From Parcubacteria group bacterium (GTDB lineage Bacteria > Patescibacteriota > Minisyncoccia > Moranbacterales > UBA2206): DNA of 64,000 bases. Location of the stretch: the NCBI GenBank assembly GCA_041659505.1, contig JBAZYF010000001.1, positions 189,274 to 253,273 on the forward strand, read 5' to 3'. Positions 28,340-51,240 of this stretch are shown here, in pieces (position 1 is the first letter of the stretch; each line of letters begins with the position of its first letter). The notes below the pieces were generated by a model that did not search any database, was not told where the DNA came from, and worked only from the letters and a program-made list of their open reading frames with translations. The position numbers were made by a program, and so were the translations under genes.

Positions 28340-28515
28340 AAATTTAAATCTTAATTTTGAATTTTTAAGCTCGAATTTTGAAATAATTTTTTAATTTTCA
28401 AATGTTTCAAAATTAATTCATTCGAGTTTGTTTCAAAATTAAGAATTCGAAATTCAAAATTAACTTAGTTTATTCGAGTTTGTTTCAAAATTCAAAATTC
28501 GAAATTCAAAATTAA
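28340..28515. repeat. AT-rich array of AATTTTGAA / TTCAAAATT repeats including a ~48-bp tandem duplication (28411-28455 / 28459-28510)
   Basis: seen directly; similar repeats at 27961-28020 flank the other side of the Avd-like gene. Confidence 0.7.
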
Positions 28516-31500
28516 CTACTTCTCCTCCACAATCCACCAGTTGACTTTCACGCTGCCGATGATCGGGTCGGAACATTTGATTTTGAATCCGGTGTACTCG
28601 CCGGTGACAACGTCGGTTTGTTTTTCCACCCAGACGCGTCCGCCGGCGTCGCCTTCGGGGGTGATAAAAATCTTGGTCGTCGCGCTAACGGCGGTCGTAT
28701 CAATCTTTACGGTCTTGCCATCTGACGCGGATATGATTTCCTCCTCGGTGACCGGCACATCGCAAATTCCGTTTTTCATAATCTTTCCGGCTTCACAAAT
28801 CACCACATCACCTAAGGTTTTCTTGGCCGCATCCACGATTTTCACGCTGAACGCTCCCGCCACGACGCTTTCCGCTTCCAGTTGGCCATTGAGAAGGATC
28901 GAATTGGCCGTGATACTGCCAGCCGTAATTTTTCCGTTCACAAAACTTAGATTAATTTCCCCTGTTTCCTTGTTAATATCCAGCGCATCGGCAAAATCCA
29001 TTACGCCTTGCGCTTGCACTTTCAGATCATCCATCTGCGTCTGGAGAGCCAGAAGGTCGCCAGATTGTTGGCTCAACTGCGCCTGCAAGTCTGCGATTTG
29101 CTGCGTCTGAGTTTCCAGATTCTGTGTGTCGGCAGTGATGCTGGAAAGTGTCTCCCCGATCAGTTGTAGTTTATTATCCACACTCAAAGATTGATCAGCC
29201 AGTTGACCGGTCAATTGGGCGACGATCTGGTTTTGATTTTGGGTGATGCTGGCAATCTGGGTTTCTTGCTGTTTAACTTGGCTGGAAAGGGCAATTGGAT
29301 TATTTATTCCACCGATCTGACCGAGCAGATATTTGGTCACTTCATTGATGGAAGAAACGGAAGCCGACAGATCGCGCTCTCCATTGGAAGCTAAAATGAA
29401 ATCGCTCAGCTTGGAGTGATCAAGCTGATTGGTCGAATCATTTTCGTCATACTCCCCATCCGGCAAACGTTGCATCGACAGCACTGCTTCGTAAGCCTGG
29501 TCGAGCGTTTTTGGATAAGCGGTGCGGTCAGTGATGGTGAGGGCGGACAGATTGGCGGTGGTATAGATGTCACCGACGACATAGAGCTTGGAAGTTGGAT
29601 CAGTTGTGCCGATGCCGACGTTGCCGGTTACTGTATCAATCCGCATTTTCTCTACTGAAGAAATATCATTAATAGTGACCAAACCTGCTTTCAAACTCAT
29701 TATATAGTCAGACGTATTGCTAAAAGTCAATGAGCCAACATCTTCGGCGCCGGGATATCCAAAATAGATTCCGGAACTGTAATATTGCTGAGAAGTCAGC
29801 ATCAACTCAGCATATCCATTGTAATTTGCAACTTGTACCTTTGCCATTGGATTCGTCGTCCCAATTCCCACATTTCCACTTGCATTAACATTAAAGCGTG
29901 AGCCGTTGATTTGGATGTCATCGTTGATGATTACTTCGCCCAAGTTGGCTGCAGACAGCGTCAGGTCAAGATTTTGCCAAGACGAATCAGTGGCGATATT
30001 GCCCGGGCCTTGGAACAGCAGATTGCCAGTATCTTCATTGGTGAGTAATAGATCATTGGCAAAGGAAACGTTGCCAGCCGAAGCAAACGACACGGGATTG
30101 GAGAAGGTTGTTTGTGCGCCACTGACCGTCATCACGTCTGTGCCGGCATAATCCAGTGTGAGTAGATTGCCCAGGCCATCACTGCGAATATATAGTCCGC
30201 CGGCGGATGCGGTGGTGGCGGAGTTATAGAAAGAACTGAGATAGCTATCGACTGATCCGGCTAGTTGCAGTTTGTAGCTTGGCGCGGTGGTGCCGATGCC
30301 GACGTTGCCAGCTATTAATGTTCCTATCGAATTCCCCTGAGTTCCATTTCCAATTGCCAGTACACCGCTAGATAATCGAGAAAGTCCAATATCTAATGTT
30401 CCCGCGTAACCGCCTTGCGACCAAGCAATTGAACTTGTGCTTGAAAGCTGTATTCCATTAGAATCAAGGTTCGCAGCAGAACCGCCATTTACGCTAGCGG
30501 CGTATAAATTTCCACTGGCGTTAAAATAGGTAACGACAGATCCGGTATTATTTTTAATCTCCAATAAATTCGTACTGCTCTGTCCAATCCCGGCTTGTAC
30601 GATAAAAGTAGTAGCACCGGTTTGATTCTCAATTCTAGAATTACCATTCACATCCAAAGCATACCCCGGATTCGTCGTTCCAATCCCCACATTCCCACTT
30701 CCCGTAATCAAAGCGAAATTATTATCCGCGCCTGACGCACTGAAATATCCGCCAATCGCAGTCGATGTTCCGCCGGTGTCGCCGGTGACGTTGGAATAGA
30801 TGCCGTAGGAATTAATTGTTCCGCCGGTGGCTCCGGTTCTGGAAAGGGCTTGATAGAGTCCGTAAGTTGTGTCGACTCCGGTGGTGACAATGCCGGTGTT
30901 ACTCAATGTTTGATAGATGCCATAGTTTGTTCCCGGGGCGGTGGTGCCGATGTTTAGGTTGTTTTGCAAAGTGTCATCGACAACCACAAATCCGTCGTTG
31001 GCGGCTGAGAGCGTCAAGTTGAGATTTTGCCAGCTGGATTCCGTGACAACATAACCCGGACCTTTGAAGCGGATATTGCCGGCGGTTGCATTGGTAAGAA
31101 GTAAGTCATTTGATAGCGACACATTGCCGGCCGAAGCAAACGAGACGGGATTGGAGAAAGTTGTTTGTGCGCCAGTGACCGTCATCACGTCCGATCCGGC
31201 ATAGTTTAAAGTCAAAAGACTGCCGAGGCCATCGCCACGGACATAGAGACCACCAGCCGAGTTTCCGGTGTTGGAATTGTAGAGATAACTCAAGTAGTTG
31301 TCGGTTGAACCGGTGACGTGAAGTTTGTAGGTTGGTGCGGTAGTGCCGATTCCGATGTTGCCGGAAGCATCAATGCGCATTCTTTCTGATCCGGATGTGT
31401 CTAAATTAATAAATCCATCATTGTGCGTAGTGTTATCTCCAGAACTTATGAACCACGAATAAGCACCATTAGGTGTCTGACCCCCAGAGCCGATACCACC

Positions 31501-34500
31501 TAACGCAGGATCAGAAATATAAAAGCCAGTATTGTCAATGGAATAAGTTGAACCAAGTCTAATGCTTGTTGCGAGTATTGAACCATTCACATCTAGCTTC
31601 GCTCCCGGATCCGTCGTCCCGATGCCGACGTTGCCATTTGCCAAAATTCTCATTCTTTCAAGATATTGCGTCACGAATGACATTACCCCTACAGATGTTA
31701 TGTTCAGCGAGTCATCTATGCCACTATTATTTTGATAAAGTATACTGCCCCGAGTTGGAGAAGTTGGCGAGCCGAAATATGAACCTGATACATATCCACC
31801 ATCACCAGCAATAAATTGCATCAGGGCTGAATTTGGATTATTTATTACGAATTGATACCCTGGCGCAGTCGTCCCAATTCCCACATTGCCATTTCCCGTA
31901 ATCAAGGCGAAATTGTTGTCGGCGCCTGACGCGCTGAAGTATCCACCGATCGCTGTCGATGTTCCGCCGGTGTCGCCGGTCACATTGGAATAGACACCGT
32001 AGGAATTGATTGTTCCACCAGTCGCTCCGGTTCTGGACAGGGCTTGATAGAGGCCATAAGTCGTGTCAACTCCGGTGGTCACAATGCCGGTGTTGTTCAA
32101 TGTTTGATAGATGCCATAGTTCGTGCCCGGGGCGGTAGAGCCGATGTTCAAATTGTTTTGCAATGTGTCGGCCACCACCACAAAGCCGTCATTGGCGGCG
32201 GACAATGTTAGGTCAAGATTTTGCCAGCCGGATTCGGTGACCACATAGCCAGCGCCTTGGAAGCGGATATTTCCGGCGGTCGAGTTGGTCAAAACCAAAT
32301 CATTCGAGAAAGCCACATTGCCGGCTGAAGCAAACGACACAGGATTGGAGAAAGTGGTTTGCGCGCCACTCACCGTCATCACGTCCGTGCCGGCATAGTT
32401 CAAAGTCAAAAGATTTCCCAGGCCATCGCCACGGACATAAAGGCCCCCAGCGGAATTTCCGGTGTTGGAATTATATAGATATGATAGATAGTTATCAGTT
32501 GAACCGGTGACGTGGAGTTTGTAGCCGGGAGCGGTGGTGCCGATGCCGACGTTGCCAGCTGCATTGATTAACATTGAATAATTACTACTATCACCATTTG
32601 TTGCAAAAGCAACATTGCCTCCTACGCCAGAATAAAGCTCGATTGAATTGTCTATGGCGTGGTCAAAGATAAGCCCCCCATCGCTTACTGAATTGTTAAA
32701 TAATCCCGCTGCCCCACCTGCCATAAATAAGTTTCCGCTTCTAATATAACCATTAGTATAAACTCCCACGTCGCTATCTGATGCTGTTACAATATCTAAT
32801 TTTCGTGTTGGATTCGTCGTTCCGATGCCGACGTTGCCGGAAGAGTTTATAACCATCTGAAGGGAAGCCATGTTAGTAGTTGAAAAGCCTAAAGAATTTC
32901 CACTTGTTAGAATAGGGCTATTGCCTCCGAGCATTGTTCCCCATGTTAAACTACCATATCCATTGATACCAAAAGCATTGCCAGCTGATACATTTCCACT
33001 GGCCGATATATTTCCGGTTACACTTAATTTTTCAGTCGGATTCGTTGTCCCAATTCCCACATTTCCATTTCCTGTAATCAAAGCGAAATTATTGTCGGCT
33101 CCTGATGCGCTGAAGTATCCGCCAATCGCGGTGGAGGTTCCGGTGCCGGCGTTGTCGGCGGTAACATTAGAATAAATTCCATAAGAATTGATCGTTCCGC
33201 CGGTGGCTCCGGTGCGAGACAGGGCTTGATAGAGTCCGTAAGTTGTGTCAACTCCGGTGGTTACAATTCCAGTGTTGTTCAGAGTTTGATAGATGCCATA
33301 ATTTGTTCCCGGTGCGGTGGAGCCGATGTTGAGGTTGTTTTGCAATGTGTCGGAAACGATGACGTAGCCATTGTTGGCGGCGCTAAGGTTGAGATTGAGA
33401 TCTTCCCAGCCGGATTCGGTGGCGATATAGCCCTGACTGCTAAAGCGGATATTGCCCGCCATTGGATTGGCCATCACCAAATCATTGGCCAGCGTCACAT
33501 TGCCAGCCGAAGCAAACGACACGGGATTAGAGAAAGTCGTTTGCGCTCCGCTGACTGTGAACACGTCTGTGCCGGCATAATTCAAAGTGAACAGATTGCC
33601 CAAGCCATCGCCACGAACATAGAGGCCACCAGCGGAGTTTCCGGTGTTGGAATTGTAGAGATAACTCAAATAGTTGTCGGTTGAGCCGGTGACGTGGAGT
33701 TTGTAACCGGGTGCGGTGGTGCCGATGCCAATGTTGCCAGCATTGCTAACGAAGAGTCCATTTCCTGTTCCTCCATAAATATAAGCATTGCCTCCCGCGG
33801 CAGTTTCTCCCTGCAATCCAATTCCATTAGTTGCTTTAAGATATCCCTGAACTCCTCCGCTTTGTTTGAAAACAAGCACGTTAGGATCCGTTCCTTTGCC
33901 ATCAAAACTCCCAGTGCCATATACATCCAATTTGTACCCCGGATTCGTCGTCCCGATGCCGACGTTACCACCAAGTCCTAAAACTGTGGCCGAATTAGCA
34001 TATCGCCCAAATATTTCCAGCGCATTTGATGTTATTGAAAAAGGATGAGTGGCATCGTAATTCACCGCAAACGTTGCATAATAACCTGCGCTAGAAGAAC
34101 TAACTACTCCCATAGCTGGATTAGCTACTCCGCCTATTTCGAGTTGTCTGGTCGGATTCGTCGTCCCGATGCCAACGTTGCCGGTGGAAGATATGAACAT
34201 TCTATCACTTCCGGCGGTCATAAAACTTATGAATTGCGATCCACTATCACTTCCCTGGATACCAGTTCCAGTTGCTCCAAAATACAAATAGTTGCTATAG
34301 CCGAGGAATAAATTTGACCTTATACGAGATTGTCCATCCACATCCAATATATACTGCGGACTTGTCATTCCAATTCCCACATTCGTCCCATCGTTATATA
34401 GATTGCTCGTCGCGGTCCAGGTTCCGGCGTTGCTGTAGAGTGTTTGGCCGGTGATGCCGGTCGGCAGTGAACCTCCGCCAGTGAGATTGATGCCGTTCCA

Positions 34501-37500
34501 GAGCAAATTGCCCCCGACGTTATAGAGCCGGTCGGTGGTTGGAGTTGGCGCCGTCGTCTGCGCCAAGTGCAGTCGGCCATTGACATCTAAAATTTCCACC
34601 GGAGCGGTGGTGCCGATGCCGATGTTTCCGGAAGAATTAATAACTAAATCTGAAGTAGGAGTTTGCCCAGAAGCATTTACATTTGTTAATCGACCAAATG
34701 ATAAAATACCTGCAGATACATTATTCATTAATACGCGACCCATTATTCCTCTTGTAATGAATGTATCCCCATTCGCACCCTGCTCACCATTGAAAACTAA
34801 ATACGGATAGCCACTGCTATAAGTAGAGCCAATAGCACTTCCATATCCTGCTGCATTAGGATGTCCAAATTCCAATCCATTTCCCGTGCCCCGCGCAGAA
34901 ATTAATGTGATAGATTGGGAGTTCCCTCCAATATCCAATCTTACTCCCGGACTCGTCGTGCCAATTCCAACATTTCCCGCCGCAGTGACTACAAAAGCGT
35001 TTGCGCCAGAGTTATTCACTTGCAAAAGTTGTGACGGCGCGGTTGTCCCGATGCCGACGAAACCGTTGGCGTCGATAATCATTGCGGTGGTGCCGGAACC
35101 CATTGTGACTTTGGAGTTGGCGGCGCTGAGGCGCAATAGTTCTTGACTATTGCCCAGGCCATTAGCACCGATGAACACAAAATCTCCGCCGGTGATGTTG
35201 GAGAAAACGGTCGAGTTGGCGCCGAGCGCTCCGACAGTCGGCGTGCCAACAATGAGGCCACTGACCGCCGTGTTGGCAGTGACCGGCGTCGCGCGGTGGG
35301 TAATGATCGAATCATTGGAATCACCCAGGGTAAAATATTGATCATCTTTCATCGAGAACGCTCCGGTCACCGTGAGGCCGGCAAAACTTGGTGAGCTGGT
35401 CGTCAAAAGATGCTGATTGAGATTCGCGTCTCCCGTGAGGTTTAGGGTGTAAGTGCTAAGTCCCAGTGTTCCGCTTCCACTGGAAATCGTGTTGCCATTC
35501 ACTTTCACCGCCGTCACCTCGCCCAAGGCATTGACTTGGAATTGAGAAGTGGCGCCGACGGAAAGCAGAGCCAATGGATTCGTCGTTCCGATTCCCACAT
35601 TCCCGCCATTAGCAATCCACATCCGATCTGCATTGGCGGTTCTGAAATATAGACTGCTACCAGCGCCGGTTCCGCTCCAATTAATACTCTCCGTGCCATT
35701 AGAATTAACGATGTCTAGGTTTGATGAACGCATGTATAGTCCTGCACCAGATGCAAAGACTCGCAAATTTCCTACTATATCCAAAGCCACTCCCGGAGCA
35801 GTCGTCCCAATTCCCACATTCCCCGCCGAAGTCACATTCAAACCGTTTGTTCCGCCGGCGATGAGGGAAAGGATGTCTGCATCAGCTGTTCCAACTCCGG
35901 TATTTTGATCAGCAAAGAAAGTAAAACCAGGGATTGTTCCCGAAGGAGTTGCGTGTAGGATCGCTGCACCATTGGTAACATTAGAATGGATAAAGCTGGA
36001 ACTTATGCTCCACGCGCCACCTCCATTTAAATTTATCATCAAACTATCATCTGCATCTTCATAAATCCCACTATCCCCGTCGCCAAAAGCCAAGCCAGTC
36101 GCCAAACTGCCGACTCCGCCGTTGAGGTGGAGGATGGCTAGCGGATTGGTGGTGCCGATGCCGACTTGGCCCGCCGAAGTAACAACGAAGGAGGCCGTTG
36201 CCGAACTATTAACTTGAAAAAGTTGCACTGGCGAGACAGTACCAATTCCCACATTGCCACCATTAAAATAACTATTTCCCGAACCGGTCACAGCAAGAAG
36301 GCCTCCCATTGATAAATTTCCAGCAGTATCCATTACGATAAGAGGAGCTGAGCCAGTGGCGGTGGTTGGGTTTCCGGTAGCACTGTATTTCGGATTCCAT
36401 CCTCCCGCCAAGAGCGGAGGTGTAGCGCCAGTCGTGTTGGAATACCATATATTAGTAGAATTATCCGGTCCGATACCATCAATACTCATGTCACCGGCAT
36501 AACTGCCAATATACCAGGTATTGTCCCCGCTTGACCACCAGATATACCAGGTGACCCCGAATTGGTAATAATTTTTCCCATTATGTTGCCCCATATATAC
36601 ATATGTCCCATTGGGGCTACCCATTGTGCCTCCGCCATTACCGCTCACCACTATTGGGACAACAACAGTTTGTCCAATTGTTGCCGACTGAGAGACTAAA
36701 GCTCCCATGGAAGACACTGTAAATTGATTGTCTGCTACTGCCAGTAACTGCGTTGGATTCGTCGTCCCAATCCCGACATTCGTACCATCGTCATACAGCA
36801 CCCCTGTCGAAAGATTATTGGCTCCTGTCCAGCGGGCGACATAGTTTTGGGTACCGGTGCCCAGGGCGAATGTTCCAGTGGCATCGGGCAATGTATAGGT
36901 CTGCACGGCGGTAAGATTAGCAATCGTCAATTGTCCTCGGCCATCGGCGTCATAGAAATAGAGTTGGGTGCCGGCGGTGCCGGTTGCAGTGAAGGCGTCG
37001 CCGGAAGTGACGTTGCCAATGCCGGTGATGTCACCGATTCCGCCTGTTCCTGCCGCAGACCAACTCATGGCACCGTCTATGGCCGAAGTGAGAACATAAC
37101 CTGATCCGCCGGGATAGCTACCAGGCAGAGTATAGGTGATGTCCGCTGTTTGATCGGCGCCTTGAAGAATTGTGTAGTATTGAGGAGTTGATCCACCTTC
37201 CAAGATTCCCATTGTTCCGGCGATGGAGAGTTTTTGGAGAGGGTTCGTGGTGCCGATGCCTAAATTACCATCTGTAGTAAGTCTCATTTTCTCCAAAGTT
37301 GTGCCTCCCACGGCAAAATATAAATTTTCACCGGCATTTGAAGCAATTTGGCCAGAATTATTGCCGATAACAAGACCATTCAAGTAAATCGCATCTCCCC
37401 CGATGTTTCCATTTACATGTAATTTATAGAGGGGATTCGTCGTTCCGATGCCAACGTTGCCGGAAGAATTGATTCGCATCGCCTCTGCTCCGACCGTAGA

Positions 37501-40500
37501 AAATCCTAATGCATTGTTAGAGCCAGTAAGAAACAAGCCTGTTGATTGTCCATTGGAAAAAGTATAGCTTGGCGATGCAGGGCCACCATTAGCATTCATA
37601 ATGTAGGAATTTACCGTAAGATTTGAATTTATAAAAGTAGCGCCACCTACATGCAATTTATACGTTGGATCAGTCGTCCCAATACCAATGTTGCCATTGC
37701 TTAAAATAACCATGCTTCTTGTCGGGATATAATCAACACCACTGGTTAGACCAGAGTTGTTCCAAAATTCAGTTCCTCCATTTTGATTAAAGTTAATTCC
37801 AGATGCCGCTGAATAATTTGGTGTAAAGTTTAGATTTGAATGATAGTAGGCATTGTTTCCAATAAAACTTCCAACGCTATCATACACAGAGCCAATCCAT
37901 AATTGCTGCAATGAGTTTGTGTTCCAAAGACGCAGTTGTTTGTAGTCCGTGTTTTGGAGGTCTAATCTTGTTGCTGGACTCGTCGTCCCAATTCCCACAT
38001 TCGTCCCATTGTCATACAGCACCCCAGTGGAAAGATTATTCGCTCCTGTCCAGCGGGCGACATAATTTTGCGTGCCGGTGCCGAGGGCCACTGTGCCGTC
38101 GGCGTTTGGCAAGGTGTAGGTTCTGGCTTGAGTAAGATCAGCAATTGTCAGTTGACCTCTACCATCGGCGTCGTAGAAATAGAGTTGGGTGCCAGCTGTG
38201 CCGGAAGCGGTGAAGGCGTCGCCTCCTGTTACATTGCCAATGGCGGTGATATCGCCTGCTCCGCTGATGCCGTTTACGGTTTTCCATTCCAAAACGCCAC
38301 TTCCATTGGAAACCAAAACTTGATCAGGATCACCGTCATTGACCGGAAAAGTGTAGATCGTATTTTGCGTCATTGAGGCGCTGGGTTGCAAGGTCAAAGT
38401 ATAGTCCGTCGCACCGACTTCGCTGTAGAGCGCGAGGCTTCCTGTGATTCCAGCGTTGCCGATTTGCATGCGCGCTGTGCTCGTGTCGATGCCAAAAATT
38501 GAATTAGCCAAAGTTGTTCCGCCGATAGCAAAGTCGCTGGCGGTGTCCGTGAGATAGGAAAGGCTCGGCGTACCAACCACGCGCGTCCAATCGCTTGATC
38601 CGGCAGTGGCTTCCGCCCAGCGCGGATTGACGCCGACACCTCTGGTTTGGAGATAATAACCGTCTGTTCCGGCGGGCAAATTGACCCAGCTCGTTCCGTT
38701 GTAATAAAGCACATCGCCTTGCGCGGGAGTGCTTGGCGCGACGAGATAGCTATTAGTATCAAAGCCCATCACTCCGCCACTGGTCATGCTCAAAAGATAG
38801 GTGGCAATGGGTTCGTCGGAAGGCAGATAGAAATGGGCGGAAGAAGTCATCGCACTGTTGGGGGAAAGGGTGGCGGAATAATCCAAGGCGCCTTGTTCGC
38901 TATAGAAACTTAAAGCTCCACTGGTGCCAGCCATTCCCAATGTCGGCGTGTGGGTAATTGACCAAGTGCCGGCGGTGAGCATCGGCATACCGCTGGAAGA
39001 TGCCGTGTCGATGCCAGTGCCTCCGCGCGATGTGGCCAGTTGCGGTTCAGCGGTGAGGGCGTTGGCTCCGCTCCAATAAGCAACCGATCCGGCAGTGCCT
39101 GATCCGGAAATAGCTCCCGCCGCGCCCCAAGTAGTAATGCAGCTGGTGCCATTGCCGAGGCACAGTCCCGCAAATTCGCCATAACCGGCGGTCACGACTT
39201 TGTCATAAGTAGAAATTCCACCAGTGATGCGTAAATTTCCGACTGTGCCGGCATCGGAAAAAGAAGCCAAAAGATTGGTACCATCGGTCAATTCAAGATT
39301 ACCGGAAGTACCGTTATAGCTGGTCGAAAAATTACCATCTGCGCCATAACGCAAAGCTGTGTTGTCCGCGAGCGTCCAAACTCCGCTGATGTTTTCGCTG
39401 TCTGCATCGAAGATATAGGCTTCGATTTTGTTTTCCAAATTCGCTTCCGTCGCTACGCCCGTGCCTCCAGTTGCGACGCCAAGAGTGGCATTGATTGACC
39501 AAGTTCCACTAGAAAGCGTCGGCACGCCGGTCGCACTGCCGGTGTTGAGGCCCGTTCCGCCATTGCCCGCACCCAAAAGTCCCGTCACATCCGTGGCCAG
39601 ATCAATCGCATTTCTGGTGAGCACTTGATTACCATCAAGGGTGATGTAGTCCAGTGTTCCCGCGAGTGTAAGCGCGGTGTGGATGTCGGTGGTGTAGGCC
39701 ACTGTTCCGCCTTCGTTTTTGAACACGATGTCACGATCAGCGGTCGGATTGGTGATGATGAAGCGCGTTTCAAAATTATCATCCGCTCCCGAACCTTCAA
39801 AGGTGATTGTTTGCGTATCGGAGTAGTTGGCATCGGCCAGGTTGAAATAGAAAGCGGAAGAATTGACCGCGCTTCCGCCAATCATTAGGCTGTCTGCGGT
39901 ATCGGTAAGAAAAGTAAAGGCGCCTCCGTCTGACCATTTCGACCCCCCACTTCCTCCATCATTCACAATCCAAGTAAACCCACCACCAGAATTATAGCTC
40001 AAAACATAACCGGCTGTTGGGCCGTTGGTGGCGCTCAAATCCGCTTCGGCAATCGTGCTGTCGCTGATTTCTGAGGAACCGATGGCATCTGATTGAATCG
40101 TGGCGACACCTAAGTTACTGATGAGCATATCTCCGCTCATAGAACGGAAAGTTGGCACACCAGTCGCTCCGGCAATGAGCAGTTGGGCGTCGGTGCCGGC
40201 CGTCGTCATTCCGACTGCACTGGCTCCCAGACCATAAAGGACACCGTTCGTGGTGAGCGTGGAGCGACCGGTTCCGCCATCAGCCACGGAAATGTCGGTG
40301 CCACCGGCGCGGTAGATGTAGCTCGAACCGATGGTTACGGCGGTTGGGATGTCAGTGGCAATCGAAGGCACGCCCGATCCGTTAGTCACGAGTAGTCCAT
40401 TATTGCCGGAAGTCACGCCAGAAAGGGCGTTAGTGCCAGACCAATAGGCCAGTTGATTAGCCACGCCGGTGCCCAGAGCGACTGAGCCTGTGGCATTGGG

Positions 40501-43500
40501 GAAAGTGTAAGTTTGATTGGCGCTGAGATCTGCCACGTCTAATGTTCCATAAAAAGTATCACCGGTGGATTCCATAATTTGCAGTTCACTGCCGGCATTA
40601 GCGAGCACAATGTCAAAGGCGCCGGCTTGCGTCCAATTGGAAGTCAAACTGCCTAAAGCCAAGGTGAGTGTCGCACCTTCGCTGCCGCCGTTGGCGCCGG
40701 TGATTCCATTGCCGTTAGTGAGCGTTGCCACGTAGTTGCCGGTGGTATCGGTGGTCAGTGCGACAGAATTAGATTGAATTGTGGCGGTGCCAGTGTCAGT
40801 CAGATTTATGTCTCCACTAACTGATTGGAAAGTCGGTGTTCCGGTTGCTCCGGCAATGAGGATTTGTCCGCTCGTACCGGCGCTGGTCATTCCCACGGCA
40901 CTCGAACCGAGGCCATAAATAACGCCGTTATTGGTGAGAGTCGAGCGACCGGTTCCGCCGTTACTCACCGGTAGTGTGCCTGTGACATCAGTTGTGAGAT
41001 CAATCGCTCCGCGCGTAAGCACTTGATTACTGTCCAGCGTGAGATAGTCCAGTGTTCCGGCCAGGGTGACGGAATTGTGGAGATCAGTTGTGAGAGCGAT
41101 GGTGCCGGAGGCGTTGGGGAAATTAATCGCTCGATCAGCGGTTGGATCAAGCACACCGACGGTTGTTTCATAAGCGTCCGGAGTGGCTCCTTCGAAAGTG
41201 AACGTAGAAGCGCTAATATCAAAGAAAAATCCAGTATCTGCCGTGCTTCCGCCGATAAGCAGGTTATTTGTCGTCGCAGTAAGATAGGTAAAACCACTGC
41301 CGGAATCAGTCCATTTCGACCCCCCACTTCCTCCATCATTCACAATCCAAGTAAACCCACCACCAGAATTATAGCTCAAAACATAACCGGCTGTTGGGCC
41401 GTTGGTGGCGCTCAAATCCGCTTCGGCAATCGTGCTGTCGCTGATTTCTGAGGAACCGATGGCATCTGATTGAATCGTGGCGACACCTAAGTTACTGATG
41501 AGCATATCTCCGCTCATAGAACGGAAAGTTGGCACACCAGTCGCTCCGGCAATGAGCAGTTGGGCGTCGGTGCCGGCCGTCGTCATTCCGACTGCACTGG
41601 CTCCCAGACCATAAAGGACACCGTTCGTGGTGAGCGTGGAGCGACCGGTTCCGCCATCAGCCACGGAAATGTCGGTGCCACCGGCGCGGTAGATGTAGCT
41701 CGAACCGATGGTTACGGCGGTTGGGATGTCAGTGGCAATCGAAGGCACGCCCGATCCGTTAGTCACGAGTAGTCCATTATTGCCGGAAGTCACGCCAGAA
41801 AGGGCGTTAGTGCCAGACCAATAGGCCAGTTGATTAGCCACGCCGGTGCCCAGAGCGACTGAGCCTGTGGCATTGGGGAAAGTGTAAGTTTGATTGGCGC
41901 TGAGATCTGCCACGTCTAATGTTCCATAAAAAGTATCACCGGTGGATTCCATAATTTGCAGTTCACTGCCGGCATTAGCGAGCACAATGTCAAAGGCGCC
42001 GGCTTGCGTCCAATTGGAAGTCAAACTGCCTAAAGCCAAGGTGAGTGTCGCACCTTCGCTGCCGCCGTTGGCGCCGGTGATTCCATTGCCGTTAGTGAGC
42101 GTTGCCACGTAGTTGCCGGTGGTATCGGTGGTCAGTGCGACAGAATTAGATTGAATTGTGGCGGTGCCAGTGTCAGTCAGATTTATGTCTCCACTAACTG
42201 ATTGGAAAGTCGGTGTTCCGGTTGCTCCGGCAATGAGGATTTGTCCGCTCGTACCGGCGCTGGTCATTCCCACGGCACTCGAACCGAGGCCATAAATAAC
42301 GCCGTTATTGGTGAGAGTCGAGCGACCGGTTCCGCCGTTACTCACCGGTAGTGTGCCTGTGACATCAGTTGTGAGATCAATCGCTCCGCGCGTAAGCACT
42401 TGATTACTGTCCAGCGTGAGATAGTCCAGTGTTCCGGCCAGGGTGACGGAATTGTGGAGATCAGTTGTGAGAGCGATGGTGCCGGAGGCGTTGGGGAAAG
42501 TGTAAGTTTGATTGGCGCTCAAGTCGCCCACGTCCACTGTGCCATAATAGGTGTTGCCAGATGATTCCATAATTTGCAATTCACTGCCCGCGTTGCCCAA
42601 GATTATATCAAAAGCACCCGACTGATTCCAATTAGCGGTGAGATTACTCAAAGCCAAAGTTAAGGTTGCGCCTTCACTGCCAGCGGAACCGCCGGTCAGG
42701 CCATTACCACTGGCGACTGTGGCCACATAGTTTCCAGTTGTCTGCGTCGTGAGTGCGATGCGATCCGCTCCGACTGAGGCCACACCCGCCGCGCTGATCG
42801 TCACATCCCCACTCATCGTCACAAAAGTCGGCACACCAGTCGCGTTAGCCACTAAAAATTGCGTTTCTGTTCCAGCCGTCGTCGCTTGAAGCGCGCCTGT
42901 TCCATTGCCATAGAGCACGCCGTTGGTTGCATAAGTTCCCGCTCCGGTGCCTCCGCGCGTCACACTCAAATACTGTTCCGCCGCCAGAGAACTGGCTCCC
43001 GTCCAATAGGTCGCGTAGCCATTGGTGCCAGTGCCAGTCACTCCGCCCACGCCGGAAACCGAACTCCAAGAGAGCGCACCGTTGCCGTCCGTGATTAAAA
43101 CTTGCTGATTGATTCCGTCATCGGCCGGCATAGTCAGTGTCACATCTTGCGTCATCGCCGGATTTGGCGCAATAGCCAGCGTGTGATCAGTCGCGCCTTG
43201 CTCACTATATATAGTGAGCGATCCGCTTGTGGCATCTGCTCCTAATTGAATTGTCGCATCCAGATCCAGTGTTGTTCCGGTCAAGTTCAGATTGCCCGAA
43301 TTGGCGGTGATCCAAGCGATAGAACTATTGGAATCATCCCAGAACATTAGACGGTCGGCGTTGGGGTCGGTGAGATTCGCTCCAGTTCCTCCGCGCGACA
43401 TTGCGAGTTGATTTTCATAAGCCAGTGTGTTGTCATCAAGCCAATAAGCGGCCGAATTGGCAAAACCGGTGCCATCAAGCGCGCCCACACCGGAAACTGA

Positions 43501-46500
43501 ACTCCAAGTCAGGGCGCCGGCACCATTCGTAATCAGCACTTGACTAGCATCACCATCATTAGCTGGAAGGGTGAAGGTAACGTTTTGCGTCATTGCTCCG
43601 TTTGGTTGTAATTTGACAGAATAATCTGTTGTTCCTTGTTCACTATATAGGGTAAGGTCACCACTCGTACCATTGGAACCAAGCGTGACAGAAGAAGCCA
43701 GGTCAAACACTGTGCCGGTGATGTTAAGGTTAGCAGCGCCGGAAAGCCAAGCGATAGAACTATTGGAATCATCCCAGAACATTAGACGGTCGGCGTTGGG
43801 GTCGGTGAGCGAGGCTCCCGTTCCACCGTCAGCCAGTGACACATCCGTTCCGCCAGCGCGATAGATATAGCCCGAACCGATCGTGACGGCGGTGGGCAAA
43901 TCCGTACTAATTGAAGGCGCGCCACCGGCACCAGTGACCAAAATTCCGTCGTTCGCGGTGGCAATGCTCGAGAGCGTGTTCGCCGAAGTTGTATAAAGAA
44001 TAGTGTTTACTCCGCCAAAAGTTCCCACACCAGTGCCTCCGCGCACCACACTCACATATTGTTCCGCCAAAAGCGTGTTAGCATCTGACCAATAAGCCGG
44101 ATAACCGGCAGTTCCGATGCCTAATGCAACAGTTCCGGAAACATTAGGAAAGGTGTATGTCTGATCAGCGCTCAAATTTGCTACATCAAAAATTCCGTAA
44201 TATAGCCCGCCGATTGATTCCATAATTTTCAATTCAGACGAGGCATTGGCTAAAACTAAATCATAGGCGCCACCTTGGCTCCAATCAGCCGTTAGATTGC
44301 TCAGCGCCAACGTCAGAGTTGCCCCCTCACTCCCGCCATTAGCACCAGCTATTCCATTGCCATTGCTCAAGGAAAGGACATAATTGCCTGTCGTGTCACT
44401 GCCCAGCGCCACAGCGTCCGGTTGGATTGTCGCCACACCCAAATCTGTCAGATTAATGTCCCCGCTCACCGAACGGAAAACTGGTGTGCCGGTTGCTCCA
44501 GCGATAATAAGCTGTCCACTGGTTCCCGCTGTGCTCGCACTGATTCCACTGGTGCCATTGCCATAGAGTACGCCATTGGTAGCAAAAGTGATCTGTCCTG
44601 TTCCGCCGTTGCCCACTGGCAGTGTGCCGGTCACGTCGGTGGCAAGATCAATGGCACTTCTAGTAATGACTTGATTGCCATCAATTGTGAGATAGTCTAA
44701 TGTTCCGCCCAAGGTCGCAGAGTTGTGTAAATCAGAGGTAAGGGCAACTGTGCCGGAAGCGTTGGGGAAATTAATCGCTCGATCAGCCGTTGGATCAAGC
44801 ACACCTAGCGTTGTTTCATAAGCATCCGGAGTGGCTCCTTCCAAAGTTAAGGTAGAGGCGCTGATATCAAAGAAGAATCCTGTATCCGTTGCGCTTCCGC
44901 CGATAACCAGGTCATTTGTCGTTGTGGTGAGATAGGTAAACGTTCCCGTGTCTGTCCATTTGGAAGAACCCGAGCCACCCGTTTCTGGCGACCAATGCAT
45001 CTGACCGCCGACATATTTCAAAATCAAGCCTTCTCCGGCGGCATTGTCAAAATTAATGTCCCCTTCGGCGATACTGCTGTCGATAATTTCCGCGCTACCC
45101 ACCGCACTATTAGCAATTGTCGCCGTTCCATTGGCGATAATGGTTACATCTCCGCCTAGCGTCACAAAAGCTGGAATACTGCTGGCATTAGCAATGAGGA
45201 TTTGTCCCGATGATCCGGCCGCGGTGATTTGCATTGCTCCGACTCCATTGCCATAAACAATTCCATTGGGCGTGAAAGTAGTCGCGCCGGTTCCGCCGTT
45301 GGCCACTGGGAGCGTACCAGTCACATGGCTAGCCAGATCAATTTGAGCAAAGGTAATCGCTTGACCGATGATTGACGCATAGGTTTGGCCGGCGAGCGTG
45401 ACTGGGGCGTGGATGTCGCTAGTCAAAGCTAGTGTGCCAGAGGTATCGGGGAAAGTATAGGTGCGGTTAGCACTCAAGTCGCCCACATCTACTGTGCCAT
45501 AGAACGCTCCGCCATTGGATTCCATGATTTGCAATTCACTGCCGGCATTAGCGAGTACGATGTCAAATGCGCCGGTTTGGTTCCAATTGGAGGTTAAATT
45601 ACCTAGCGCCAACGTCAGAGTTGCCCCCTCACTCCCGCCATTAGCACCAGCTATTCCATTGCCATTGCTCAAGGAAAGGACATAATTGCCTGTCGTGTCA
45701 CTGCCCAGCGCCACAGCGTCCGGTTGGATTGTCGCCACACCCAAATCTGTCAGATTAATGTCCCCGCTCACCGAACGGAAAACTGGTGTGCCGGTTGCTC
45801 CAGCGATAATAAGCTGTCCACTGGTTCCCGCTGTGCTCGCACTGATTCCACTGGTGCCATTGCCATAGAGTACGCCATTGGTAGCAAAAGTGATCTGTCC
45901 TGTTCCGCCGTTGCCCACTGGCAGTGTGCCGGTCACGTCGGTGGCAAGATCAATGGCACTTCTAGTAATGACTTGATTGCCATCAATTGTGAGATAGTCT
46001 AATGTTCCGCCCAAGGTCGCAGAGTTGTGTAAATCAGAGGTAAGGGCAACTGTGCCGGAAGCGTTGGGGAAATTAATCGCTCGATCAGCCGTTGGATCAA
46101 GCACACCTAGCGTTGTTTCATAAGCATCCGGAGTGGCTCCTTCCAAAGTTAAGGTAGAGGCGCTGATATCAAAGAAGAATCCTGTATCCGTTGCGCTTCC
46201 GCCGATAACCAGGTCATTTGTCGTTGTGGTGAGATAGGTAAACGTTCCCGTGTCTGTCCATTTGGAAGAACCCGAGCCACCCGTTTCTGGCGACCAATGC
46301 ATCTGACCGCCGACATATTTCAAAATCAAGCCTTCTCCGGCGGCATTGTCAAAATTAATGTCCCCTTCGGCGATACTGCTGTCGATAATTTCCGCGCTAC
46401 CCACCGCACTATTAGCAATTGTCGCCGTTCCATTGGCGATAATGGTTACATCTCCGCCTAGCGTCACAAAAGCTGGAATACTGCTGGCATTAGCAATGAG

Positions 46501-49500
46501 GATTTGTCCCGATGATCCGGCCGCGGTGATTTGCATTGCTCCGACTCCATTGCCATAAACAATTCCATTGGGCGTGAAAGTAGTCGCGCCGGTTCCGCCG
46601 TTGGCCACTGGGAGCGTACCAGTCACATGGCTAGCCAGATCAATTTGAGCAAAGGTAATCGCTTGACCGATGATTGACGCATAGGTTTGGCCGGCGAGCG
46701 TGACTGGGGCGTGGATGTCGCTAGTCAAAGCTAGTGTGCCAGAGGTATCGGGGAAAGTATAGGTGCGGTTAGCACTCAAGTCGCCCACATCTACTGTGCC
46801 ATAGAACGCTCCGCCATTGGATTCCATGATTTGCAATTCACTGCCGGCATTAGCGAGTACGATGTCAAATGCGCCGGTTTGGTTCCAATTGGAAGTCAGG
46901 CTATCCAGCGCAAACGACGCCGTCCAACCTTCTCCGGCCACGCCGGAAATGGCAATTCCATTGCCACTTGTTGCACCGAGCAGATAATTTCCCACCGTGT
47001 CAGTTCCTAGTGCGACTGAATTGGGCTGAATCGTTGACGCGCCCGAAGCCGCAATAAAAACATCGCCGGTCATTGGCACAAATACTGGCACCCCGCTGGA
47101 ATTGGCCACGACAAACTGCGCTTCCGTTCCTGCTGCTGTAATGTTAATTCCACTCGTGCCATTACCGTAGAGAATGCCGTTGGTGGCAAAAGTCGCTCTG
47201 CCTGTTCCACCGTTGCTGATTGGCAACGTACCCGTCACATCAGTTGTCAAATCAATCTGCCCGCGCACTATGTCTTGCCCGGCAAGCGTGATGTAGTCAT
47301 AAAGACCGCTCACACTCAAATTCGTCTGAGTAATAATTGTTTGCCCGGTGCCATTGCCAATCACCAATTGATCATTGTCCACGTCCCATTCAATCCGGCC
47401 TTCAGCGGTTGGTGTCGGCGTGGCTGATTGAACCAGTGTAAGATTTGATCCGGAAATCGTTCCGCCGGAAATCGTCAGCGCATCAGAAACATAGGCATCC
47501 GTAACAGGAGTCGCATTCCAGATACCGGCCGTCACTGTTCCCAGCGAACTGATAGTTGATGTATTGCGCCATTGTAAAGCAGATCCGGTATTGCTCAAAA
47601 ATTGACCCGCTGATCCAACAGCCATTCTTTGCCATTTGATGATTCCCCCGCCTTGATTAGTTCCCACAATCATATCGCCCTCCAAAGGCGAAGCAGCCAC
47701 GACATCCGGATGAGAAAGCGAAAGTAAATTATGCGCTCCGACAAAGGGGGAATTTTGCCAGCCAGGCGCTCCGCCCAAAACACCAAAAATTTGTCCGTTC
47801 GATCCAATCGGCAAACGTGTCAGCGCTCCGCCGGAAGAATAATATAGCAGATCGCCTGGAACATAACTAGACAGTCCTGTTCCGCCATTGCCAGTTGGCA
47901 ATGTGCCCGTCACATCCGTGCCTAAATCAATCGCGTTTAGTGTAAGCACTTGATTGGCATCGATTGAGAGATAATCCAAAGAACCAGCCAACGTGACTGC
48001 GCTGTGACCAAGTGCCGACAAATTACCCCATGCCGGTGTACCATCGGCAGAAATTGATAATACTTGGCCGATTGTTCCCGCGGATATCTTAGAGAAAGTT
48101 GAGCCGGAAGAATAATACAGCATATCGCCGGAAGTAAAAGCAGAAAGTCCCGTGCCTCCACTGGCAATTGGCAAAATGCCTTGCGTTTCGCTTGCCAGAT
48201 CAACTTTTCCGACCGTGAATTTTTGGCCAGAAAGCGTGAGAAACTTGGAGCCGGAAATGGTAAATTTCAAACGTTTGTCGTTGCCCAAAAGTAGCTGATT
48301 ACTCCCCGTTCCGGTTGGCAAATTGGAAATGGCAATTTTGCCTTGCGCGTCCAGAGCAACAATGTCCCCGGCCGAGACGCCAACTTTTTTGCCATTGAGG
48401 AGCAGTGAATTTCCGGCATTGAGCGCATAAAGCGGAGTGGCCAGTCTTTTTCTCGGTGCCATCTCGCTATCCTCTCCCACGCGGATGCCCAAAAAGAACT
48501 GACCAGCTTGGATGGTTGTGAAAATTGGCAAGTCAGTGACTTGTCCCAGGTTAACGCGGAAAATACCATCCTTAACCGTGACAGTTTGCGTTTCTTCCCA
48601 AACGCGATTGGCGCTGTCTGTGTCGGAAGGATAAGCGTCAATTTGGGTGCGATCTGTGTCATAGATGGCAAAACGCACAGCATAGCTTCCGTCCTCTACT
48701 TGCCCGTTGGCGCCGGAAAGCGCTCCGGTCAATTGAATAATTCTCGGTTTTGTGACAATGGTTGTCGCGTCACTCGCATTTTGCGTCGTCGTATTGTCCG
48801 ACGCAACAATCGCTTCCGCCAAAACCATTTCTTGTCCTCCTTCGCTAAAGCTACGGCGTGACGAGCCCGAATTGGATTTGGCAATAGTTTTTTCATCTCC
48901 CATCGGCGCATACGCCAAATCTTGTCCCCCTGCCAAATTTCCTTCGCTACGCTGAAGCTCTTTGACACGCCGTAGTTCATCAACGGAGGAGGTTAGCGAA
49001 AGCGAGGCCAACTGATATTTTTCCGGCAAAGCGTAGGCCACTGTCGCGAAAAGCAAAATAATTCCAACCACCAAAGCCGGATATTTAGCATTGACAAGAA
49101 TTAAATTTTTCTTGGCTCGGAGTGCCAGAGAATTTTCTTGCCTTTTTTCTTTCGAAGCCAATTCAAAATTATGCGCGGATTTTTCTTTTTTGACAGAAAG
49201 ATTTTTTTTGCCTTTGAAAAAAATTGAAATTATTTTTTCTGATGATTTTAGTAATTTTAGATTCGCAAAAATTTGGCGGATAATTTTTAGCAAAAACCAA
49301 GCCAGAAAAATACCGGAAATCAGAACCGCAAATGAGACTGCAAGTTGTTCAATCAGCACCAAATCTAGTTTTTCGCCGGAAAAAATCGCACCGGCAAAAA
49401 TGGCTTGTTTGCGGGAATTTTTACCCGTGCAGACGAGGCAGTGCCTCGTCTCTGCCGCTTTTTTGCCACCACAAATAGCCCTTTCCCAAACTTGGGTTAA

Positions 49501-49575: not shown

Positions 49576-49714
49576 TTTTTGTTTTATTTTCCCATGAATT
49601 TACTTCTGAATTATACCATAAAAAAAAAGATTGCAATAGGGCAAAATGGCAAAGTTATCCACAGGTGGAAATTGAGAAAAAATTGGTTGAATTTTTGATA
49701 TATTTATCGCATCC

Positions 49715-49742
49715 GTAGAGACGAGGCACTGCCTCGGCTTGG
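49715..49742. repeat. PE copy, degenerate right arm (GTAGAGACGAGGCA-c-TGCCTCGGCTTGG)
   Basis: seen directly. Confidence 0.65.
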
Positions 49743-49781
49743 TCACATTTCCAATCTATTTTTTGCAAAAATACCTAGCCT

Positions 49782-49829
49782 GTAGAGACGCCTGCCTGTC
49801 CGGTAGGCAGGCAATTCAATGCGTCTAGC
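49782..49829. repeat. long PE variant GTAGAGACG-[GCCTGCCT-gtccggt-AGGCAGGC]-caattcaatg-CGTCTAGC
   Basis: conserved outer arms with a different 8-bp inner hairpin. Confidence 0.6.
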
Positions 49830-49862
49830 GGTTTTAATAATCGGGTAAATTTTACACAAAAA

Positions 49863-49887
49863 AAGACGTGGCAGTGCCACGTCTCTA
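49863..49887. repeat. PE copy AGACGTGGCA-g-TGCCACGTCTCTAC
   Basis: GTGG/CCAC stem variant. Confidence 0.75.
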
Positions 49888-49912
49888 CAAGTAAATTTAT
49901 TTTCGCAAATTT

Positions 49913-50992: not shown

Positions 50993-51039
50993 GTTTTGAT
51001 TATAGCATAGTTTTTATTTTTCGTCTTTTTATAAATCCC

Positions 51040-51240
51040 CTTCGCCCTCCGGGAGAAGGCCTGCCCGAATTGCAACTCGTTGCAGGCGGGTGGCCGAAGG
51101 CCGGATGAGGGAAAGGGTGTTGCGTAAAACAAAAACTGAATTGGTTTAGATTATTCCTAATTTATTGCCCTTGCCCTCACCTGTCATGATTGCATGACAT
51201 CCTCTCCCGAGGGGAGAAGAGGCTTTTTATTTTTTTTCAA
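51040..51240. other. structured intergenic region: GC-rich nested inverted repeats, and a plus-strand terminator-like hairpin + T-run (CCTCTCCCgaGGGGAGAAGAGGcttttt) overlapping the lgt 3' end
   Basis: GCCTGCCCGAATTGCAACTCGTTGCAGGCGGG and CCGAAGGCCGG pairings seen directly. Confidence 0.35.

What the first reader, a model, noticed from the sequence alone, without database searches (positions are those of the whole stretch)
28516..49575. 7,019-aa repetitive surface protein with two near-identical internal tandem duplications (1,377-bp and 1,302-bp periods)
A single 21-kb ORF carries two regions (39933-42505 and 44299-46890) where ~1.3-1.4-kb units repeat with essentially 100% nucleotide identity; the ORF track's duplicated spurious ORFs show the same thing. 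Such perfect long repeats inside a gene indicate very recent duplication or active homogenisation. They are natural sites for copy-number (length) variation of the fibre. They are also classic short-read assembly collapse or expansion points, so the true copy number may differ.
Basis: seen in the sequence. Interest (0 to 1): 0.6.

Follow-up and report, generated by a model that had tools for sequence, protein, structure and literature searches.

The report
Giant tail-fibre-like protein with exact repeats
A 7,019-residue membrane-anchored surface fibre of an uncultured Parcubacteria/Moranbacteria-type bacterium, built from phage-tail-fibre-like modules, carries two real, perfectly identical 1.2-1.3 kb internal repeats that break independent short-read assemblies, so its true length is uncertain.

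Summary
ORF 28516-49575 (minus strand, 7,019 aa) contains two exact direct repeats: 39934-41122 = 41311-42499 (1,189 nt, offset 1,377) and 44303-45591 = 45605-46893 (1,289 nt, offset 1,302). Identity falls abruptly to about 35-65% outside them. They are the only exact repeats longer than 1 kb in the window.

Two independent assemblies of the same organism end exactly k or k-1 bases inside a repeat boundary. The boundaries are therefore real branch points in read data, and two copies is a lower bound.

The exact tracts are shorter than their periods. The 13-nt piece between the 1,289-nt copies is an old, mostly synonymously diverged relic. This argues for homogenisation (gene conversion) of pre-existing modules, not a simple new tandem duplication.

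The protein has two N-terminal hydrophobic segments. About 3,200 aa of "GGTG" modules follow, shared with phage tail fibres. Then come about 3,000 aa of "GNVGIGTT" fibre repeats that match PHROG tail-fibre families and Bdellovibrio MAT fibre Bd2133. It ends in a coiled coil and a tailspike-like beta-sandwich tip, with no S74 chaperone domain.

The context is chromosomal, next to four LamG giant proteins. This is a new member of a known kind and is moderately interesting.

The parts
28516..49575 (-). Giant ORF, 7,019 aa. An alternative start is M22 at 49512. An extended -10-like TGGTATAAT lies about 40 nt upstream of M1.
   Evidence: N-terminal residues 1-200 are conserved in ortholog L006.
49264..49371 (-). 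Hydrophobic segment 1 (aa 69-104, possibly a hairpin).
   Evidence: Kyte-Doolittle scan.
49018..49107 (-). Hydrophobic segment 2 (aa 157-186), a signal-anchor-like segment ending in AYA|LP. It is preceded by a loop with net charge +12.
48232..48831 (-). Conserved membrane-proximal domain (aa ~249-448). This is the part shared at 44-51% identity with relatives from Moraniibacteriota, Patescibacteria and a Bdellovibrionales-labelled MAG.
38776..48285 (-). N-terminal fibre half (aa ~431-3600). It holds about 14 modules of 190-240 aa, each carrying an LPxxNGGTG motif. Two module types alternate, giving 434- and 459-aa super-units.
   Evidence: Homologues.
45605..46893 (-). Exact repeat B, gene-proximal copy (aa 895-1324).
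   Evidence: Logan unitig L001 ends at 46864, 30 nt inside.
45592..45604 (-). 13-nt junction J_M between the B copies. It is a relic of an older diverged module (it encodes G-N-L-T, against D-S-L-T and S-N-L-T at the outer junctions).
44303..45591 (-). Exact repeat B, gene-distal copy (aa 1329-1758).
41311..42499 (-). Exact repeat A, gene-proximal copy (aa 2359-2755).
41123..41310 (-). 188-nt non-duplicated spacer S between the A copies (aa 2756-2817, tail of a type-2 module).
39934..41122 (-). Exact repeat A, gene-distal copy (aa 2818-3214).
   Evidence: ENA megahit contig k141_801829 ends at 40074, 141 nt inside.
29476..38538 (-). C-terminal fibre half (aa ~3680-6700) with 15 GNVGIGTT motifs. 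It is beta-helix or tail-fibre-like.
   Evidence: PHROG tail fiber families phrog_9942 (1.9e-61) and phrog_18345 (5.1e-52). phmmer hit to Bdellovibrio Bd2133, PDB 8OND (2.8e-4).
30661..33741 (-). Older three-copy repeat (period 1,182-1,194 nt, 81-86% nt identity). Differences are mostly at codon position 3.
28876..29538 (-). 'TITDRTAYPK...' element plus a long coiled coil (aa 6680-6900). It stands where most relatives carry an S74 chaperone domain followed by the same coiled coil.
28519..28818 (-). C-terminal beta-sandwich tip (aa ~6920-7019).
   Evidence: AF2 pLDDT ~90. Weak Pfam K1-lyase_C hit (5.8e-4, below cut-off). Best Foldseek PDB matches are phage tailspike C-terminal regions 7W1C/7W1D and 7EEA (E 0.08-0.2).

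Best explanation
The gene encodes a very long cell-anchored fibre, a presumed adhesin, of an uncultured Parcubacteria/Moraniibacteriota-type (CPR) bacterium.

Predicted layout (inferred):
- The short basic N-terminus and two hydrophobic segments hold the protein in the membrane.
- A conserved membrane-proximal domain follows.
- About 6,400 residues of phage-tail-fibre-like modules, probably trimeric, form the shaft.
- A coiled coil and a small tailspike-like beta-sandwich form the distal tip, with no S74 chaperone domain.

The two exact repeats are real features of the read data (shown). They most likely arose by recent non-reciprocal copying (gene conversion) between neighbouring super-units that already existed in the module array. 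It was not a simple new tandem duplication.

Each repeat forms a loop in a de Bruijn graph. The assembled two copies are therefore the minimal solution. The real gene may be longer by multiples of 434 or 459 aa, or may vary in the population. Every such variant stays in frame.
For: Repeats:
- The ENA megahit k141 contig is 100% identical to the window and ends 141 nt inside repeat A.
- The Logan k31 unitig is 100% identical and ends 30 nt inside repeat B.
- The ortholog contig L006 (83% aa identity) also stops inside the region corresponding to repeat B. Its identity to the window is continuous across the 5' boundary, so the proximal copy carries the ancestral sequence there.

Conversion rather than duplication:
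- The exact runs are shorter than the periods.
- The 13-nt junction matches neither outer junction, nor a hybrid of them, and differs mostly at synonymous sites.
- The spacer S is only about 45% identical at protein level to the segment after copy 2.
- Background module identity is 57-73%.

Protein identity:
- PHROG tail fiber hits and a hit to the MAT fibre Bd2133 (PMC10769870).
- The 434-aa super-unit has 5,072 representative homologues, many 1,000-5,800 aa long with several matched stretches. Some are phage-type proteins with Mtd_N at their N-terminus.
- Homologues of the C-terminus are annotated 'tail fiber domain-containing protein' in Moranbacteria.
- Hydrophobic segments occur only in aa 69-186.

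Chromosomal context:
- Lgt, Ddl and a Mur ligase lie upstream, and four LamG_3/DUF2341 giant proteins lie downstream. No phage structural genes were found.
- The source is an NCBI MAG labelled 'Parcubacteria group bacterium', on a 656-kb contig.
Against: - No read data were available. Bubble collapse in an assembler could make copies that are 97-99% identical look 100% identical, and the copy number is unverified.
- Gene conversion between units that were only about 60-70% identical would be inefficient. The model therefore needs the two units to have been kept similar earlier.
- For repeat B the tract length (1,289) is suspiciously close to the period (1,302). A duplication-type event would predict this; a random conversion tract would not.
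- Older repeats in the same gene show no sign of ongoing conversion.
- Trimeric state, surface exposure and adhesin function are inferred from homology only.
- The AF2 monomer model of the super-unit is of low confidence (pLDDT 60).
- The membrane topology is ambiguous, because the N-terminal 77 aa are also basic.
Confidence: 0.55

Rival explanations
1. Assembly-level effect. The repeats exist, but their perfect identity, their number, or both are products of the assembler: loop traversal done once, or bulge/bubble collapse. The real gene would then have more than two copies of one or both units, slightly different copies, or a copy number that varies in the population.
For: Both repeats are simple loops (a-X-b-X-c) that two other assemblies could not cross. 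Contigs of all relatives break in the same part of the gene. Repeat-driven fragmentation of giant genes is documented (bioRxiv 10.1101/2023.11.21.568195).
Against: The junction sequences (13-nt J_M, 188-nt S) are present in the contig and link the end of X to the start of X, so at least two copies exist in at least part of the population. The breaks at exactly k or k-1 bases show that the identity boundaries are real. This rival changes the count, not the nature of the feature.
Confidence: 0.25
2. Two very recent simple tandem duplications, by unequal crossover or replication slippage, each of one super-unit.
For: The periods equal one super-unit (434 and 459 aa). For repeat B the module pattern headA+tailX / headX+tailX / headX+tailC is exactly what duplication of [tailX-T2-headX] would give. 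The exact run of B is 99% of the period. Older repeats in the gene look like duplications followed by clock-like divergence.
Against: A tandem duplication or unequal crossover gives an exact run at least as long as the period. The observed runs fall short by 13 nt and 188 nt. The intervening pieces carry 5-7 differences in 13 nt, or about 55% protein divergence, while 2 x 1.2-1.3 kb carry none. J_M is not a hybrid of the outer junctions.
Confidence: 0.12
3. The ORF is a phage or prophage tail-fibre gene, or the fibre of a phage-tail-like particle, and not a cellular surface protein.
For: Both halves have their only annotated relatives among phage tail fibres. The tip resembles tailspike C-termini.
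Against: No capsid, portal, terminase, sheath, tube or baseplate genes occur in 64 kb, and the flanking genes are housekeeping genes. Phage fibres do not normally carry an N-terminal membrane anchor. At 7,019 aa the protein far exceeds known phage fibres. The closest named relatives are chromosomal proteins of Moranbacteria MAGs.
Confidence: 0.05

Closest known systems
Bdellovibrio bacteriovorus MAT (mosaic adhesive trimer) fibres, e.g. Bd2133 (PDB 8OND); non-S74 subgroup (PMC10769870)
   Same: Both are cellular, surface-displayed fibres built from phage-tail-fibre-like repeats. They share the G-N-x-G-x-G-T-x-x-P-x-x-x-L-h-V motif (phmmer E 2.8e-4). Both have a conserved domain just after the export signal. 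Both end in a beta-sandwich tip in place of the S74 chaperone.
   Different: MATs are about 1,000 aa with a cleaved signal peptide. This protein is 7,019 aa with two hydrophobic segments and a long basic cytoplasmic loop. It has an additional 3,200-aa 'GGTG' module region that gave no match to any solved structure in a sequence search of the PDB. Its tip is preceded by a long coiled coil. Homology of the N-terminal domains was not tested. The host is a CPR bacterium, not a predator with a known lifestyle.
Phage tail fibres and tailspikes (PHROG 9942 and 18345; Mtd_N-headed fibres; K1 lyase and Pam1 tailspike C-termini)
   Same: The shaft modules are shared in both halves. There is a weak fold and HMM similarity of the tip to tailspike C-terminal domains.
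   Different: There is no virion-attachment N-terminus (no Mtd_N) and no S74 domain. The protein has a membrane anchor, is about ten times longer, and sits in a chromosomal, non-phage context.
'Tail fiber domain-containing proteins' of Moranbacteria/Moraniibacteriota MAGs (P0014, P0019, P0020)
   Same: They share the coiled coil and the C-terminal beta domain (35-40% identity over about 75% of the last 340 aa) and the GNVGIGTT repeats.
   Different: Those proteins are 400-560 aa (several are partial) and carry PF13884 Peptidase_S74 with SDxRxK. This protein has a 'TITDRTAYPK' element there instead, shared only with P0010 and P0015.
Repeat-rich giant adhesin genes of bacteria (e.g. Dockerin-type giant proteins of Omnitrophota, bioRxiv 10.1101/2023.11.21.568195)
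   Same: These are giant, membrane-anchored, repetitive, presumed attachment proteins whose repeats fragment short-read assemblies.
   Different: The domain content is unrelated, and the Omnitrophota proteins are much larger (>30,000 aa).

Membership tests
MAT-type / phage-tail-fibre-like trimeric fibre | Shaft repeats homologous to tail-fibre or beta-helix fibre repeats | tested here: met
   PHROG tail fiber families at 1.9e-61 and 5.1e-52. Bd2133 8OND at 2.8e-4. Homologues of the N-half super-unit include Mtd_N-headed proteins.
MAT-type / phage-tail-fibre-like trimeric fibre | Export signal followed by a conserved N-terminal domain | tested here: inconclusive
   Two hydrophobic segments, the second ending in AYA|LP (hydropathy only). 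A domain at aa 249-448 is conserved in relatives. Homology to the MAT N-terminal domain was not tested, because no MAT N-terminal sequence was at hand.
MAT-type / phage-tail-fibre-like trimeric fibre | Trimeric assembly | not testable with these tools
   Only monomer AF2 was available. The super-unit model has pLDDT 60.
MAT-type / phage-tail-fibre-like trimeric fibre | Independent C-terminal tip domain (S74 or alternative) | tested here: met
   The last ~100 aa fold as a beta-sandwich with pLDDT ~90, with weak tailspike-C-terminus similarity.
Peptidase_S74 (intramolecular chaperone) tail-fibre proteins | PF13884 domain with an SDxxxK catalytic motif near the C-terminus | tested here: not met
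   No Pfam hit even at E<=10 for the last 460 aa. The alignment shows 'TITDRTAYPK' instead of SDxRxK, while relatives carry PF13884.
Simple tandem duplication / unequal crossover product | Exact identity run at least one full period long, with the junction a hybrid of the outer flanks | tested here: not met
   1,189 < 1,377 and 1,289 < 1,302. J_M matches neither outer junction nor a hybrid of them.
Diversity-generating retroelement target (Mtd-like) | Nearby reverse transcriptase, a TR/VR pair with A-specific mismatches, and a C-type-lectin VR | tested here: not met
   No RT or CLec domain was found in any Pfam-scanned ORF of the window. The repeats are exact, not A-mutated.
Prophage / phage-tail-like particle locus | Neighbouring capsid, tail, baseplate or sheath genes | tested here: not met
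   The neighbours are Lgt, Mur ligase, Ddl, an aminotransferase, NUDIX, LamG proteins and AAA_14 ATPases.

The most novel reading that the evidence does not exclude
This protein could be the host-attachment organelle of an episymbiotic CPR bacterium. It would be a membrane-anchored fibre several hundred nanometres long, domesticated from phage tail fibres. Its internal 434- and 459-aa cassettes would be kept identical by concerted evolution and would expand or contract in frame. That would give population-level variation in fibre length (reach), while the small C-terminal tip sets specificity.
Probability: 0.25. Interest if true: 0.6.

Novelty: new member of a known kind. Interest (0 to 1): 0.4.

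Why it matters
CPR/Patescibacteria are thought to live attached to other cells, yet their attachment machinery is largely unknown. A 21-kb gene, about 3% of a 656-kb contig, encodes a tail-fibre-derived and presumably surface fibre next to four LamG giant proteins. That makes it a concrete candidate for the attachment machinery. It also extends the 'cellular tail-fibre adhesin' idea, known from Bdellovibrio MAT proteins, to a much larger scale and to another lifestyle.

There is also a practical point. The two exact repeats are proven assembly breakpoints. The annotated length should be treated as a minimum, and relatives in databases are almost all truncated.

Tried and rejected
- Pfam and NCBIfam scans of both halves of the protein gave no family. 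Pfam on the 434-aa super-unit at E<=10 also gave nothing.
- A PDB sequence search of aa 1-2000 gave no hit.
- tblastn of the super-unit against 50,697 phage genomes gave only three weak partial hits. Cultured phages therefore do not carry close relatives.
- BLASTP self-comparison failed because of HSP containment culling. It was replaced by masked chunk searches.
- The genome contigs and metagenome-contig scans with the N-terminal 450 aa returned only 3 loci each. All were truncated soon after the match, so copy number could not be compared between relatives.
- The word-index search with the N-terminal 879 aa gave 9 mostly partial proteins and did not return the protein itself.
- AF2 of the super-unit with a 26-row alignment was of low confidence. 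Its BFVD matches have low TM-scores and serve only as weak support.
- The whole-protein MAFFT alignment A2 was too gappy to use.
- The idea that the C-terminal 'TDRT' element is a degenerate S74 domain was dropped. Homologue P0015 carries both that element and a separate S74-like segment.
- A DGR origin, suggested by Mtd_N in homologues, was rejected because there is no RT and the repeats are exact.
- tRNA and Rfam scans of the window found nothing.
Full report
**Observation**

The window has one open reading frame from 28516 to 49575 on the minus strand, 7,019 codons long. An ungapped comparison at fixed offsets shows two perfect direct repeats:
- Pair A: 39934-41122 equals 41311-42499 (1,189 nt, offset 1,377).
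- Pair B: 44303-45591 equals 45605-46893 (1,289 nt, offset 1,302).

In the protein these are aa 2818-3214 = 2359-2755 and aa 1329-1758 = 895-1324. Both offsets are multiples of three.

Outside the tracts identity falls within a few bases to about 35-65%. BLAST over the wider homologous regions gives 98% over 1,259 nt and 90.5% over 1,756 nt. The rest of the window contains many diverged paralogous stretches, among them four LamG genes at 70-92% identity. It contains no other exact repeat longer than 1 kb. The strand, and the fact that the exact tracts are shorter than the periods, were not noted.

**Are the repeats real or an assembly product?**

The source is an NCBI MAG labelled 'Parcubacteria group bacterium' (locus tags WC848_*), on a contig of 656,349 nt. 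Two other assemblies of the same organism were recovered.
- A Logan unitig from SRR6484325 is 100% identical to window 46864-51118. It stops 30 nt, which is k-1 for k=31, inside the proximal copy of repeat B.
- An ENA megahit contig (ERZ27247358, k141_801829, 53,822 nt) is 100% identical to the window over the 20,345 nt retrieved. From its length and the 3,852-aa partial product, it ends at window position 40074. That is exactly 141 nt (k) inside the distal copy of repeat A.

The boundaries of identity are therefore branch points in independent de Bruijn graphs. Each repeat forms a loop, a-X-b-X-c. The linking pieces b (13 nt and 188 nt) must exist in reads, so at least two copies exist. Any higher number would collapse to the same two-copy path.

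Contigs of all relatives also end shortly after the repetitive part begins. The 83%-identical orthologue L006 ends at the position equivalent to aa 977, inside the repeat-B region. Fragmentation of giant repetitive genes of this kind is documented (10.1101/2023.11.21.568195). The length of 7,019 aa is thus a minimum. Adding units keeps the frame.

**How did the exact tracts arise?**

A tandem duplication, or an unequal crossover between sister copies, must produce an exact run at least one period long. The observed runs fall short by 188 nt (A) and 13 nt (B).

In repeat B the module pattern is headA+tailX, T2, headX+tailX, T2, headX+tailC. This looks like a duplication of [tailX-T2-headX]. However, the 13 nt between the copies (coding strand A GGT AAT TTA ACC) differ at 5-7 positions from both outer junctions. 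Three positions match neither outer junction, and most differences are synonymous. The two 1,289-nt copies, in contrast, have no difference at all. The 13 nt are therefore a relic of an older, diverged middle module.

In repeat A the 62-aa spacer is a type-2 module tail. It is only about 45% identical to the homologous segment after the second copy. The sequence before the first copy is a different module type.

The simplest single-event reading is non-reciprocal copying (gene conversion) between neighbouring super-units that already existed, with tracts ending where homology ends. The window-orthologue identity stays at about 85% across the 5' boundary of the proximal B copy. That copy therefore retains the ancestral sequence there, and the distal copy is the likely recipient.

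Several points weigh against this reading:
- Background identity between modules is only 57-73%, which is poor substrate for RecA.
- The near-equality of tract and period in B is a coincidence under a conversion model.
- Older repeats (30661-33741, 83.5% identity) show evenly spaced differences, 88 of 117 at third codon positions. This is ordinary divergence under purifying selection with no sign of continuing conversion.

I therefore rank conversion first, but not by a wide margin over more complex duplication scenarios. Bubble collapse by the assembler could also hide a few real differences between the copies.

**What the protein is**

Its composition is G 14%, T 12%, S 10%, A 10% and N 8%, with almost no Cys. 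Only two hydrophobic segments exist, at aa 69-104 and 157-186. They are separated by a loop of net charge +12, and the second ends in AYA|LP. The N-terminal 200 residues are conserved in the orthologue, so they are coding.

Residues ~249-448 are the part conserved at 44-51% identity in relatives from Moraniibacteriota, Patescibacteria and a Bdellovibrionales-labelled MAG.

Residues ~431-3600 consist of about 14 modules of 190-240 aa, each with an LPxxNGGTG motif. Two types alternate. They match no Pfam, NCBIfam or PDB entry. The 434-aa super-unit nevertheless has 5,072 cluster representatives at E<=1e-3 and 142 at E<=1e-30. Many of these are 1,000-5,800 aa long with several matched stretches. 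Named hits are Patescibacteria, Moranbacteria and Saccharimonadales proteins. Others of 400-720 aa begin with the Mtd_N domain typical of phage tail fibres.

Residues ~3680-6700 carry 15 GNVGIGTT motifs. They match PHROG tail-fibre families 9942 and 18345. Through the motif, they also match the beta-helix region of the Bdellovibrio fibre Bd2133 (8OND, E 2.8e-4). Bd2133 belongs to the trimeric 'mosaic adhesive trimer' family described in PMC10769870.

The last 340 aa have homologues that are mostly 'tail fiber domain-containing proteins' of Moranbacteria. In those, a Peptidase_S74 chaperone domain precedes the same coiled coil and C-terminal domain. This protein and two relatives have a 'TITDRTAYPK...' element instead and lack SDxRxK. 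AF2 predicts long helices followed by a confident beta-sandwich (last ~100 aa, pLDDT ~90). The best, but weak, structural and HMM matches of that sandwich are C-terminal regions of phage tailspikes: K1 lyase 7W1C/D, Pam1 7EEA and Pfam K1-lyase_C.

**Context**

All genes run on the minus strand. Upstream lie D-Ala-D-Ala ligase, NUDIX, an aminotransferase, a Mur ligase fragment, Lgt and a 359-aa membrane protein without family. Downstream lie a 23S-rRNA-IVP protein and four paralogous LamG_3/DUF2341 proteins of 1,750-1,950 aa. These are interleaved with AAA_14/DUF4143 ATPases and one PD-(D/E)XK protein. No phage structural gene, reverse transcriptase, tRNA or Rfam element was found. This is a chromosomal surface-protein island, not a prophage.

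**Mechanism proposed**

Shown:
- repeat structure and boundaries;
- assembly breakpoints;
- module homologies;
- position of the hydrophobic segments;
- fold of the tip.

Inferred:
- N-in anchoring, with the shaft outside the cell;
- trimeric fibre;
- adhesin role in attachment to a host or partner cell;
- conversion origin of the exact tracts;
- possible in-frame length variation.

**Comparison and novelty**

In architecture the protein works like a very long non-S74 MAT fibre: anchor, conserved proximal domain, tail-fibre shaft, independent tip. Membership of that family is supported only for the shaft motif and the tip logic. The N-terminal domain homology and trimerisation were not tested. 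It is not an S74 tail-fibre protein, because that feature was tested and not met.

Thousands of module homologues exist, and long repetitive adhesins with exact repeats are common. I therefore rate it a new member of a known kind. What is notable is its size relative to a genome of roughly 0.66 Mb or more, its CPR host, and the clean demonstration of repeat-bounded assembly breaks.

Interest is 0.4.

Noticed in passing
window 250-27990 (minus strand): There are four paralogous giant LamG_3/DUF2341 proteins (1,753-1,954 aa, 6-7 Laminin_G_3 domains each). Three are each followed by an AAA_14+DUF4143 ATPase gene and one by a PD-(D/E)XK (PDDEXK_3) gene, forming a ~7-kb repeated cassette. The paralogues are mosaics of 70-92% identical stretches. 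Together with the fibre gene they make a ~48-kb one-strand surface-protein island.
   Followed up: partly
window 28413-28517 (just downstream of the stop codon of the giant gene): Two tandem copies of an AT-rich 52-nt unit (92% identical) containing TTCGAA palindromes, with an overlapping 7-nt TTCAAAA micro-repeat. The function is unknown; it could be a terminator or the regulatory region of the next gene.
   Followed up: no
window 49913-50992 (minus strand): A 359-aa ORF lies directly upstream of the fibre gene. It has one hydrophobic segment and a charged, probably helical, region, and no Pfam family. It is annotated hypothetical (MFA5961228). It could be a partner of the fibre.
   Followed up: partly
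aa ~4290-4440 of the giant protein (about window 36250-36710, minus strand): A Trp/Tyr-rich, apparently globular insertion (…GTYVYMGQHNGKNYYQFGVTWYIWWSSGDNTWYIGSYAGD…) interrupts the GNVGIGTT fibre repeats. It may be a lateral binding domain.
   Followed up: no
aa 30-50 of the giant protein (window ~49426-49488, minus strand): A Cys-containing motif, ICGGKKAAETRHCLVC, sits in the basic N-terminal cytoplasmic part and is conserved in orthologue L006. It is possibly a small metal-binding knuckle. These are almost the only cysteines in the protein.
   Followed up: no
L004 (CAYWVL010000016.1): One of the three genome hits to the conserved N-terminal domain (44% identity) is a MAG labelled 'uncultured Bdellovibrionales bacterium'. 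It is worth checking whether this domain is the same as the conserved N-terminal domain of the Bdellovibrio MAT fibres.
   Followed up: no
window 52544-53293 and 56456-57150: A 249-aa ORF contains only the Mur ligase middle domain and may be a truncated or split gene. A nucleotidyltransferase / substrate-binding pair (an HEPN/MNT-like toxin-antitoxin arrangement) lies upstream of Ddl.
   Followed up: no
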